64,000 nucleotides of DNA from assembly GCF_003704095.1 (NCBI RefSeq), contig NW_020846447.1, positions 186,001-250,000 of the forward strand. The letters are read 5' to 3'. This stretch comes from Pocillopora damicornis (taxonomy: Eukaryota). Under the pieces are notes generated by a model. The model did not search any database. It was not told the origin of the DNA and worked only from the letters and a program-made list of their open reading frames with translations. This document shows, piece by piece, positions 11,512 to 14,500 of this stretch. A program made the translations under genes and the position numbers. Numbering within the stretch: the first letter of the stretch is position 1; every line of letters starts with the position of its first letter.

Positions 11512-14500
11512 TACGCTAGAGGTATTTTTTTTTGTGAAAGTGATGTCTACGATTCCTTCAAGGTGATAGGGCTTTCGGAAAGTGCACTCACCAAACAGGG
11601 CCTGTATCTGTTGAGTATCATCCCTGCTCAGCTTGTAGTCCGGCAGATAACCTTTATACCAGGGGTACATAATGGACTCCTGATTGCGGGAGTGCTTCAG
11701 ACCCATAGTGTGTCCAAGTAGATGAACCGCCGCCCAGTACAAGTTGATGCCGTTGTCTGTTCCTGTGGTGAATGTTTCATCGTCATCAAAATGGACCTCA
11801 ACAGGTAAATCTGAAAAAAATACGGAAATAAATGAGTGAATAGTATTAAATTAGGCTTATTTCGGGATGCTACAATTGCTGCAAACGTAACGGCCAAAAA
11901 TCGACCCCCCTTAATACTATGTTAGTGGCGAATGATCACCCCTCCGTTGAAAACCATGCCACATCATCCACAAACTCCCCCGCTCTCCCCAGGCCACTAG
12001 TCCTTACACCACCCAGAGAAAAAAAAACGTTTCTCTCACCCTTGCTGGAATCTGGATAAAGCACGTGTCCGAATGTTCCTCCTTTTCCATCAAATGGGTA
12101 CGGATCACCGTGTGATCCTTTCAAAAATCGAACAAGAACTTTGCTCTTTTGGTCATCTTGAGTCGAGCGCTTCGTAACTCGGCATGTTGATCCGGCTGGA
12201 ACATAAATCTCCAAACGTCGCAACAATCTGCTCAGCGATGAAATTTGTCCCACAGCATATCGGTGGGACATAATTGCTGAGATCATTTCCTGAGATGGAA
12301 AAAGGAGTTGTTTACCTTACATAACATCTTGACGATTTCCAACTTGTGAGATTCTAACACCTCGCTAATACGCCTTTATTGTTTTGGTGTTTATTCCTTT
12401 CATTTTTAATCATCGCTCGTTGATCAACGAGGAAACAGATAATTTAATTGCATGTAGTTATGTTTTTCATGTCACGCAATCTACGTCGAAAGGATCACAC
12501 AACGAATCAAAGGAACCTATGTCTTGGTGCCAATCTTGAGCCCAGGGTCATTAAGCTCCTTGCCAGCGGTATTTTCGGGGACCATACCGCTGACGAGGAG
12601 CCGAAATGACCCCGATATTGTCTTCGTGTCTGTCTACTTGCAAGCTTATCTTTCTCTCTCTCTTGTTTAGGTCTTACGTACCCCTCGAGCTGCACAAAAC
12701 AGGTCCACGTATCTTTGAAAGTAAACAGAACGTTTGTTTTTTCCTTTTTTCTCTTCATGTCGGTGTGGTTCGTCGTTTTTCTCCACATTTCCACATCGAG
12801 GAATGACAAACAGCTTTTTGGTGTCGAAATCCAATTCCCCGGTGACACTTAACCCAGCCATGCGCTGTACGTTTGAGATCATTTCGGTAAAGTTGTTGTC
12901 TTGTCCTGGTTTAAAAACCTTGTACTTTTTCATCCATTCCTACAAATGGGATTAACGTTTTGGTTTGAAGAGTTAGATTGAACACTGACCATGGCTTAGT
13001 ATACGCCTAACACATCAGTTTCTCAAGGGTGGAGAGGCAGGGGGGTTGGATTCTTAGGAAGCGCGTGACCCCCATTTTTGGATAATAAAGCAAACGGAAC
13101 ACATAGTCTAACTGAATGCAATCGAGTCAGCCCCAGTAAGCTCAGCACGGAAACTTAAACGCAATGGCATACTTACTTGTGCTGTAATTCTCTAACGCAG
13201 ACCAAATTTATAGTGCGAAGGGAGGAAGGGGGGAGAGGGAGTCTAACATCATATATGGGGGCATGACAGGCTGGGTTAGTATGTAATTAATGCGCTTATC
13301 GAGTGAAGGAAAATAACAACACCTGTAAAATATTAATTAATTCGCTGACGGGGTGAAAACGACTCAAAATGAACCCGTTGAACTTGGTTGGAATTAATAT
13401 TAGTCAAAAACTGTCTGAGAATGTTACAGAACATTTATCAGGTAGTAGACATACGAAATCAAGGTTTTGGTGTGGTTTCAATGGGAAACAGTTTCCCAGT
13501 TGAAATGTGGCGGTGCAGTGTTATCATGTTGACCTCTCAAAAGAGTTGTTTAATTTGCGTCGAAAAAGTCTAAATTTGATTTTCGCACCTTTTAATGAAG
13601 TTTTTTTTTTCTCATATTTATCTGCAGTTAGTATCTAACATAAATATTTTGTAGGCGAGGACCGCTGTTGAATTTACCTGGTCTAAGTGCAAAGTGTACT
13701 TCATCGAGAGTGAAACATCGTGCCCTAGACCTTTTTTCAATGATCTCAAAAGGAATCCATTAACGATCAGATCTCGGGCAGTTTCTATTTCGTTCAACAG
13801 CTTTTAAATTCTTTGTGGCTTCATCGGTAATTTGCTCTTAATTTAGCAGATAATGCGCGATAAACTCTCTTAAGACAGCTTTTTTAGAGTCTCTTATCAG
13901 GAGTATAAGTTTCGGCCAAGTAATTTAATCAACGCGTGCAATCAAAACTATAAATTTTTTCTAATTTACAAACCTCAAAGCACGCCTCAGCTATGTTTAA
14001 GAGCCAAATATCTTGGGATTGCACTACACAACAATTGCACAAAACTTTACTGAAACATCTCTGTAGTTAGTGAACTAGCAAAGCACAACCGACCATATGG
14101 GCCAAAGATATCAGAGGATAAATTTCTTGGAGTTGATCTGAGAAAGAGATAACGATTTTAGTCCGATCTGTTTTTAATTGCAGCGCGCGTGCTTCGATTC
14201 CATTTAAAATAGTCTGTTGCTTTTATGGGTTCTGAGAATAAATCAAAGTCTCAAGAAAGAGATTTGTCAGTAAGACTGCAAATGACTTCTAGATCCTCAT
14301 AGCTGTCTGATGTAACGTTTTAATTTTTCCTTTTCGTACTGCTAATGGCTCAAAAATTTAGTCTTTTAAATAACGCTAAATAAACTGGAGTGAACTTCAC
14401 AACATATGAGACCTTAGACAATCAGAACGAAAACGCCGAGGAAGACGTCAATTTGAAAATAAATTTCGCGAATGGCTGGATGAGGTTACTGTCTGTAACG

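What the first reader, a model, noticed from the sequence alone, without database searches (positions are those of the whole stretch)
11592..11810. Apparently intact MMP-like gene with catalytic Glu changed to Leu (HLLGHxxGLxH): candidate secreted pseudo-protease
Seen: the three zinc-binding His, the Met-turn, the structural-zinc ligands (HGD, GH, VHFD) and the PRCG cysteine switch are retained, but the general-base Glu is CTA (11719-11721). That is at least two substitutions from GAA/GAG, so it is unlikely to be a single sequencing error. The reading frame is open over five exons. Known: Glu loss abolishes metzincin catalysis. Inference: a non-catalytic zinc-binding decoy, TIMP sink or matrix-binding protein.
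Basis: partly seen in the sequence, partly recalled or inferred. Interest (0 to 1): 0.7.

Follow-up and report, generated by a model that had tools for sequence, protein, structure and literature searches.

The report
Catalytically dead MMP conserved in corals
A reef-coral gene for a matrix metalloproteinase has leucine in place of the glutamate such enzymes need to cut proteins, yet it is spliced and is intact and conserved in both Pocillopora and Stylophora, so it likely works as a secreted binder or decoy rather than as a protease.

Summary
Observation confirmed. The gene is on the minus strand, with five coding exons and 364 aa: signal peptide, prodomain with PRCG, MMP catalytic domain, 59-aa tail, no hemopexin domain. 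RNA contigs from 4 of 4 studies show the spliced exons and the CTA codon. HLLGH is in 14 of 14 Pocillopora-cluster and 6 of 6 Stylophora-cluster proteins that cover the site. All 24 other zinc motifs examined in this genome keep Glu. Prodomain plus core are 86% identical between the two genera, against 50% in the tail and 87% in the Glu-keeping sister paralog, so the dead domain is under constraint. New here: the sister paralog shows the reverse loss. It keeps Glu and hemopexin but has lost the three structural-zinc His. Both sit in a coral subfamily with a remodelled, fast-evolving N-terminal part of the catalytic domain. Best reading: a secreted, zinc-loaded pseudo-MMP whose cleft, masked by the prodomain, binds without cutting. 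TIMP versus substrate versus matrix binding is untested. Glu-less MMP-like proteins are known in legumes (E-to-Q); my searches found no natural animal case. Verdict: new variant of a known kind.

The parts
14769..14954 (-). Coding exon 1: start (ATG 14954; second candidate ATG of MKTRG at 14930), signal peptide, start of prodomain
   Evidence: Junction 14769/12939 in 4 of 4 RNA runs; only strongly hydrophobic stretch is residues 14-31; matches the P. verrucosa 364-aa model
12682..12939 (-). Exon 2: prodomain helices, PRCG cysteine switch (Cys111, 12801-12790), basic site KNKR (12741-12730; RNKR in Stylophora), Cys144
   Evidence: 3 synonymous and 0 non-synonymous listed differences in RNA contigs
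12040..12289 (-). Exon 3: remodelled cationic N-terminal part of the catalytic domain (Cys184, internal TKR), then HGD (H208/D210) and FGH (H223)
   Evidence: 8 non-synonymous and 2 synonymous listed differences
11592..11810 (-). Exon 4: VHFD (H238), zinc motif HLLGHTMGLKH, Met-turn
11719..11721 (-). CTA codon, Leu262 at the position of the general-base Glu (GAA in the sister and in 7 of 8 subfamily loci; CAA in L055)
10439..10620 (-). Exon 5: 59-aa Thr/Lys/Ala-rich tail (probably a remnant of the linker) and TAA stop; no hemopexin follows
   Evidence: no hemopexin hit on this contig
9367..10438 (-). Likely 3' UTR (extent uncertain)
   Evidence: one RNA-library contig spans 9367-10621 (X20); contigs cannot show transcript ends
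1..2033 (-). Partial segmental copy (84% identity, starts about 375 nt before the window) of intron 4, exon 5 and 3' UTR; the exon-5 copy (1163 to about 983) has a 1-nt deletion
   Evidence: no other exon is duplicated

Best explanation
This is an expressed, conserved MMP-family gene whose product has lost the catalytic glutamate and the hemopexin domain, and it likely acts as a secreted zinc-loaded binder: the prodomain would keep the cleft masked until a furin-like cut, after which the cleft would hold TIMPs or matrix substrates without cleaving them. Shown: gene structure, splicing, Leu at the Glu position in two genera, loss of hemopexin, constraint on prodomain and core, origin by duplication beside a Glu-keeping sister. 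Predicted: proMMP fold. From established chemistry: no general base, so no meaningful proteolysis. Inferred: secretion, zinc loading, processing and binding. Because no other folded domain remains, whatever is being selected must lie in the prodomain or the dead catalytic domain.
For: Spliced in 4 of 4 RNA runs with CTA. HLLGH in 14 of the 15 listed Pocillopora-cluster proteins and 6 of 7 Stylophora-cluster proteins; the two exceptions are fragments that do not cover the site (15 of 26 members of the first cluster were listed). 24 of 24 other zinc motifs examined in this genome have HE. Pocillopora-Stylophora identity: prodomain 84/95, core 91/108, tail 18/36; Fisher p=4e-6 for pro+core against tail; pro+core 175/203 against 182/210 in the Glu-keeping sister, p=1.0. 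Exons 2+4: 2 of 7 listed variants are non-synonymous, p=0.006 against neutral. Exon-4 dN/dS against four paralogs/relatives is 0.23-0.51. The model fits proMMP-9 with Z 21.5, rmsd 2.6 over 213 residues. Tree: one Leu clade (100/96), sister to the Glu-keeping paralog (98/88), inside a coral subfamily (100/99). At least 14 TIMP-domain matches in the genome. PDB titles show that engineered active-site mutants of MMP-2 and MMP-9 were crystallised, one with an inhibitor bound (1eak, 1gkd).
Against: No assay of activity, zinc content, secretion, processing or binding. Leu is bulkier than the Ala/Gln of engineered mutants and would remove the Glu contact that TIMP residue 2 makes (recalled, not from a call), so TIMP binding may be weaker. 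The Pocillopora cleavage site is KNKR, not canonical RxKR. Residues 133-197 are remodelled and two of the usual calcium sites look altered (by motif comparison, recalled numbering). Exon-4 dN/dS is higher in three of four pairs with this gene (0.36, 0.40, 0.51) than in the four pairs without it (0.22-0.31), which points to some relaxation; these are 71-codon windows that include time before the Glu loss. Exon 3 variants (8 non-synonymous of 10) match the neutral expectation. The fold model was built on an alignment mostly of canonical MMPs, so it is partly circular.
Confidence: 0.58

Rival explanations
1. A permanently latent scaffold: the prodomain stays on, the cleft is irrelevant, and the function lies on the surface, most likely the cationic, fast-evolving 133-197 segment binding sulfated glycans, membranes, microbes or a receptor.
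For: Segment 133-189 has pI 10.2, net +6; it is 71% identical between genera against 86% for pro+core (p=0.008) and carries 7 of the 8 listed non-synonymous exon-3 variants. The prodomain is the best conserved part (88%). The Pocillopora furin site is non-canonical. In ADAM22 the surface, not the pseudo-active site, binds the ligand (PMC11266112, figure legend passage).
Against: Fast change is equally explained by relaxed constraint; the sister's segment evolves even faster (56%). A basic site before the mature domain is kept in both genera.
Confidence: 0.22
2. A decaying duplicate: transcribed, but on its way to becoming a pseudogene, with conservation only from the need to fold harmlessly.
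For: It has lost Glu and hemopexin; it lies outside the nine-gene MMP cluster on C3262, on another contig; dN/dS is somewhat raised; exon 3 variation looks neutral.
Against: The frame is open across all full-length cluster members seen in two genera. Pro+core identity equals that of the Glu-keeping sister and far exceeds the tail. Every zinc ligand and the switch Cys are kept.
Confidence: 0.1
3. It is still a weak or unusual hydrolase, using zinc-bound water without a general base or a base from elsewhere, for example from the substrate.
For: All three catalytic His, the Met-turn and the latency switch are kept; a latency switch makes most sense for something active. Some supposed pseudoenzymes proved active (PMC11266112 section 1).
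Against: Leu cannot transfer protons. No compensating acid is shared by both genera near the motif (YWAAVH against DWVAAH). Glu is described as required for activity (PMC4263021 passage).
Confidence: 0.07
4. Sequencing or assembly error, or a private allele.
For: None found.
Against: The same codon in 4 RNA studies; Leu in P. meandrina, P. verrucosa and S. pistillata database proteins.
Confidence: 0.01

Closest known systems
Matrix metalloproteinases (MEROPS M10A, Pfam PF00413), minimal-domain type such as MMP-7/matrilysin
   Same: Signal, prodomain with PRCG, catalytic domain with both zinc sites and Met-turn, no hemopexin; best PDB sequence hit is proMMP-7 (E=5e-30); fold match to proMMP-9/-10
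   Different: Glu is Leu. Residues 133-197 do not align by sequence with the MMP N-terminal strands (Pfam match starts at profile position 46 of 159) and carry two extra Cys. It is not an MMP-7 ortholog: it lost hemopexin on its own within a coral subfamily.
Legume MMP-like proteins: MtMMPL1 and soybean flower MMPs with E-to-Q
   Same: Natural MMP-family proteins without the catalytic Glu; a role in symbiont infection is reported for MtMMPL1 (passages of PMC2715019 and PMC4263021; the original paper was not available to read)
   Different: Plant, independent origin, conservative Gln rather than Leu, mostly with a transmembrane or GPI end; this protein is animal and has no hydrophobic tail.
ADAM pseudopeptidases (M12B), closest ADAM7 HQLGH and ADAM29 HHLGH
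   Same: Metzincins that keep three His and the Met-turn but lack Glu (PMC11266112 Table 2)
   Different: Different family; membrane proteins with disintegrin and other domains that can carry the function. Here only the prodomain and the dead domain remain. That review's tables list no M10 member.
Sister paralog in Pocillopora (G000:C3262:177459-183370, P0013) and Stylophora (XP_022784338.1, annotated MMP-14-like)
   Same: Same first four intron positions, similar prodomain, same remodelled Cys-bearing segment
   Different: It keeps HELGH and four hemopexin repeats but has lost all three structural-zinc His: the reverse set of losses.

Membership tests
MMP / matrixin family (M10A), by descent | PF00413 catalytic domain above cut-off | tested here: met
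   109.5 bits against cut-off 24 for the P. verrucosa ortholog P0076; exon 4 of the window 74.3 bits
MMP / matrixin family (M10A), by descent | Three zinc-binding His and Met-turn | tested here: met
   H261, H265, H271, M279
MMP / matrixin family (M10A), by descent | Prodomain with PRCG cysteine switch | tested here: met
   PRCGNVE, Cys111; proMMP fold Z 21.5, rmsd 2.6, 213 aligned
MMP / matrixin family (M10A), by descent | Structural zinc site (His, Asp, His, His) | tested here: met
   H208, D210, H223, H238 align with MMP-7; sequence only, metal not measured
Active MMP (enzyme) | General-base Glu in HExxHxxGxxH | tested here: not met
   Leu (CTA) in genome, 4 RNA runs and orthologs
Active MMP (enzyme) | Proteolytic activity | not testable with these tools
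   needs an assay
Archetypal or membrane-type MMP | Hemopexin domain and/or membrane anchor | tested here: not met
   Stop after a 59-aa tail in spliced RNA and in orthologs; no hemopexin hit on this contig; no hydrophobic stretch after residue 60 above 1.25
Metallo-pseudopeptidase (non-peptidase homologue) | Intact, expressed gene lacking a catalytic residue | tested here: met
Metallo-pseudopeptidase (non-peptidase homologue) | Conserved under purifying selection | tested here: met
   Regional identities and small-sample variant counts; no codon-model test between genera
Metallo-pseudopeptidase (non-peptidase homologue) | Demonstrated non-catalytic function | not testable with these tools
   needs binding or knock-down experiments
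TIMP sink / decoy | Binds TIMP through the zinc cleft | not tested
   TIMP loci exist, but no full-length coral TIMP with its N-terminus was available as a single sequence

The most novel reading that the evidence does not exclude
One ancestral coral MMP split into two complementary descendants in pocilloporids. One kept the catalytic Glu and hemopexin but lost the structural zinc. The other kept both zinc sites and the latency switch, lost Glu and hemopexin, and became a furin-activated trap that sets the free TIMP or substrate level for a large MMP family. It displays a disulfide-tied, cationic, fast-evolving segment between two basic sites that could be nicked or released. This would be a first natural animal MMP pseudoenzyme with a regulatory role.
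Probability: 0.2. Interest if true: 0.75.

Novelty: new variant of a known kind. Interest (0 to 1): 0.52.

Why it matters
Animal MMPs are treated as active enzymes. A 2024 review of metallo-pseudopeptidases lists none from family M10 (PMC11266112, Tables 1-2), and the natural Glu-less MMP-like proteins I found in print are from legumes. A conserved animal example stripped to prodomain plus dead catalytic domain is a clean system for asking what an MMP does without cutting. Practically, databases call this gene 'matrilysin' or 'stromelysin-2-like', so coral expression studies would read it as more proteolysis when it may mean less. The scope is modest: one gene, seen in two genera of one coral family, with no function yet shown.

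Tried and rejected
Error or private allele: rejected. RNA editing back to Glu: the RNA contigs read CTA. A longer isoform with hemopexin: no hemopexin hit in the window or in C3082:156001-303599 and 1-10000, nor anywhere on C3082 in the genome search. Physical linkage to the MMP cluster: the end of C3262 does not overlap either end of C3082, so linkage is not shown here; both Stylophora proteins sit on contigs of the same listed length, 944,169, which is only a hint. Repeat proteins P0139, P0149, P0152 and P0163 that hit exon 3 are low-complexity tandem-repeat translations with no Pfam hit above cut-off; treated as chance. Laying runs X21 and X22 to obtain a more distant ortholog's DNA found no exon, so no dN/dS between genera. 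A profile search for full-length subfamily members outside Pocilloporidae returned only 5 proteins already known. The ESM Atlas gave no result. Three look-ups of earlier scan findings were empty. Four of the 14 metagenome loci (L054, L056, L059, L060; GC 0.54-0.73) were not coral MMPs and were dropped; L053 and L057 lack exon 4. No complex was predicted. Ten paper searches found nothing on this gene. One search searched four accessions and 'HLLGH': 0 accession hits and 4 unrelated titles. Term look-ups in PMC13581030 (0 hits), PMC10381214 and PMC8382919 (passages) added nothing. Supplements were not searched and could list the gene; most subscription journals are not held.

Full report
Observation. 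The finding's interval is exon 4 of a minus-strand gene. RNA contigs from four studies bridge four GT-AG introns: 14768-12940, 12681-12290, 12039-11811 and 11591-10621. The joined frame is open for 364 codons from ATG 14954 to TAA 10441-10439. The zinc motif reads HLLGHTMGLKH with CTA at 11721-11719. No run lists a difference at this codon. One run also shows an upstream 87-nt intron (14977-15063), which fits 391-aa database models, so the start codon is uncertain. The hydrophobic stretch at residues 14-31 fits a signal peptide.

Identity and distribution. The protein falls in a 90% cluster with named P. meandrina and P. verrucosa proteins, annotated 'matrilysin'. A second cluster, 77% identical, holds S. 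pistillata 'stromelysin-2-like' XP_022784353.1. HLLGH is in 14 of 15 listed members of the first cluster (26 members in all) and 6 of 7 of the second; the two without it are fragments that miss the site. In this genome PF00413 gave 46 exon-level matches. All 24 other zinc motifs I read have HE; one further locus, C3101:289319, was not read.

Anatomy. Signal peptide; prodomain with PRCG (C111); basic site KNKR (RNKR in Stylophora); catalytic domain with H208, D210, H223, H238 (structural zinc), H261, H265, H271 and M279; then a 59-aa tail. No hemopexin exon was found on the contig. Pfam covers only profile positions 46-159: residues 133-197 are remodelled, cationic (pI 10.2 for 133-189) and hold Cys144 and Cys184. 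An AlphaFold2 model of the P. verrucosa ortholog P0076 has mean pLDDT 72 and pTM 0.69; the core is mostly 78-94, and much of 121-200 is 45-78. It matches proMMP-9 at Z 21.5, rmsd 2.6 over 213 residues. Its alignment was mostly canonical MMPs, so this is partly circular.

Origin. The nearest paralog (P0013, 43% identity) is the last gene of a nine-gene MMP cluster on C3262 and has a Stylophora ortholog. It shares the first four intron positions and the remodelled segment, keeps HELGH and four hemopexin repeats, and has lost the three structural-zinc His. A pattern scan of metagenome contigs gave 14 loci, 10 of them subfamily loci from other, unidentified corals. Of the 8 that include exon 4, six read HEFGH, one HEFAH and one HQFGH. 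L064 keeps Glu, the structural His and hemopexin together, probably the ancestral state. In a 57-row tree of catalytic domains, the four Leu rows form one clade (100/96), sister to the Glu-keeping paralog (98/88), inside a subfamily supported at 100/99; the place of L064 is weak (84/49), and 10 rows had exon 4 only. So the Glu was lost once, after a duplication and before Pocillopora and Stylophora split. The two extra Cys occur together in three lineages and are both absent in L063. That fits a disulfide but is one event, not covariation. The second Cys is followed by RKRR or RNRR in relatives and by V/I-TKR here, a possible internal cut site.

Selection. Pocillopora-Stylophora identity is 84/95 in the prodomain, 46/65 in 133-197, 91/108 in the core and 18/36 in the tail. 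The sister gives 85/100, 33/59 and 97/110. Pro+core exceeds the tail (p=4e-6) and equals the sister (p=1.0). Differences in RNA contigs X17 and X20 (10 of 15 and 12 of 15 were listed by the tool; four rows from a separate X20 contig and three intronic X22 rows were dropped; two changes in codon 162 were counted separately) give 0 non-synonymous and 3 synonymous in exon 2, 2 and 2 in exon 4, and 8 and 2 in exon 3. Exons 2+4 are below neutral (p=0.006); exon 3 is at neutral. Exon-4 dN/dS is 0.23-0.51 in pairs with this gene and 0.22-0.31 in pairs without it. Conclusion: constrained, somewhat relaxed, with one fast segment. No Stylophora DNA was available for a proper codon test.

Mechanism. Established: the Glu is the general base, and Leu cannot replace it. 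Inferred: with hemopexin gone, selection must act on the prodomain and the dead catalytic domain. Keeping the cysteine switch, both zinc sites, the cleft-wall sequence MYPWY and a basic processing site suggests a zinc-loaded cleft that is masked and then unmasked, and binds without cutting. Candidate ligands are TIMPs (14 TIMP-domain matches in the genome) and matrix substrates of the 24 or more Glu-keeping paralogs. Neither was tested. Rivals: a latent scaffold acting through the cationic segment (0.22), a decaying duplicate (0.10), an unusual hydrolase (0.07).

Comparison with what is known. It is an MMP by descent but fails the defining Glu of an active MMP. It works most like legume E-to-Q MMP-like proteins (passages of PMC2715019 and PMC4263021; the MtMMPL1 paper itself not seen) and ADAM7/ADAM29-type pseudopeptidases (PMC11266112 section 1 with tables, and passages), whose tables list no M10 member. 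The motif definition is from a passage of PMC1867822. Ten searches found no paper on this gene (listed under Tried and rejected); the library lacks most subscription journals. MMP residue roles, furin consensus and TIMP contacts are recalled, not from calls.

Verdict. Real, reproducible and not explained in the papers I could search. It is a new variant of a known kind: confidence about 0.85 that it is a constrained non-catalytic protein, 0.58 for the masked binding-cleft mechanism, interest 0.52.

Noticed in passing
G000:C3262:177459-183370 (L049; proteins P0013, P0108): The sister MMP keeps HELGH and hemopexin but has lost all three structural-zinc His in both Pocillopora and Stylophora (also the Asp in Stylophora) and has an internal RNRR/RKRR site. 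An MMP without the structural zinc is unusual in its own right.
   Followed up: partly
L055:1221-1253: A subfamily member from another coral reads HQFGH (CAA), while four near-identical loci read HEFGH (GAA): either an independent Glu loss, an allele or an error in one contig.
   Followed up: no
L064:about 1490-1530: A subfamily member with HEFAHGFGLKH: the usually invariant Gly of HExGH is Ala.
   Followed up: no
window 1-2033: 2.4-kb copy (84%) of the gene's intron 4, exon 5 and 3' UTR, 9.4 kb downstream on the same strand. The acceptor is intact; a 1-nt deletion gives a stop after 38 codons. Possible alternative last exon; no RNA was laid on it.
   Followed up: partly
G000:C3262:107000-183400; C2466; C3101; C2282; C4106: Large MMP expansion in tandem clusters (nine genes in about 77 kb on C3262). 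L005 and L023 have stops near the zinc-motif exon.
   Followed up: partly
G000:C569:121000-152000 and C2494:1-58000: TIMP expansion: 14 TIMP-domain matches, 13 of them in two clusters.
   Followed up: no
window 6873-7502 (+): BTB/POZ plus TLDc ORF, convergent with the 3' end of the MMP-like gene.
   Followed up: no
window 22765-23688 (-), 25595-25966 (-), 37288-37716 (+), 58126-58881 (+): ORFs with Laminin_G_3, weak MFS_1, G-patch and FHA Pfam hits; none is an MMP.
   Followed up: no
window 47022-52498 (-): Exons of a gene with a 645-aa Ser/Glu/Arg-rich stretch, a Pro-rich and an acidic stretch, without Pfam hits.
   Followed up: no
window 12545-12612: Imperfect 68-nt palindrome in intron 2, part of a repeat found in many RNA contigs.
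   Followed up: no
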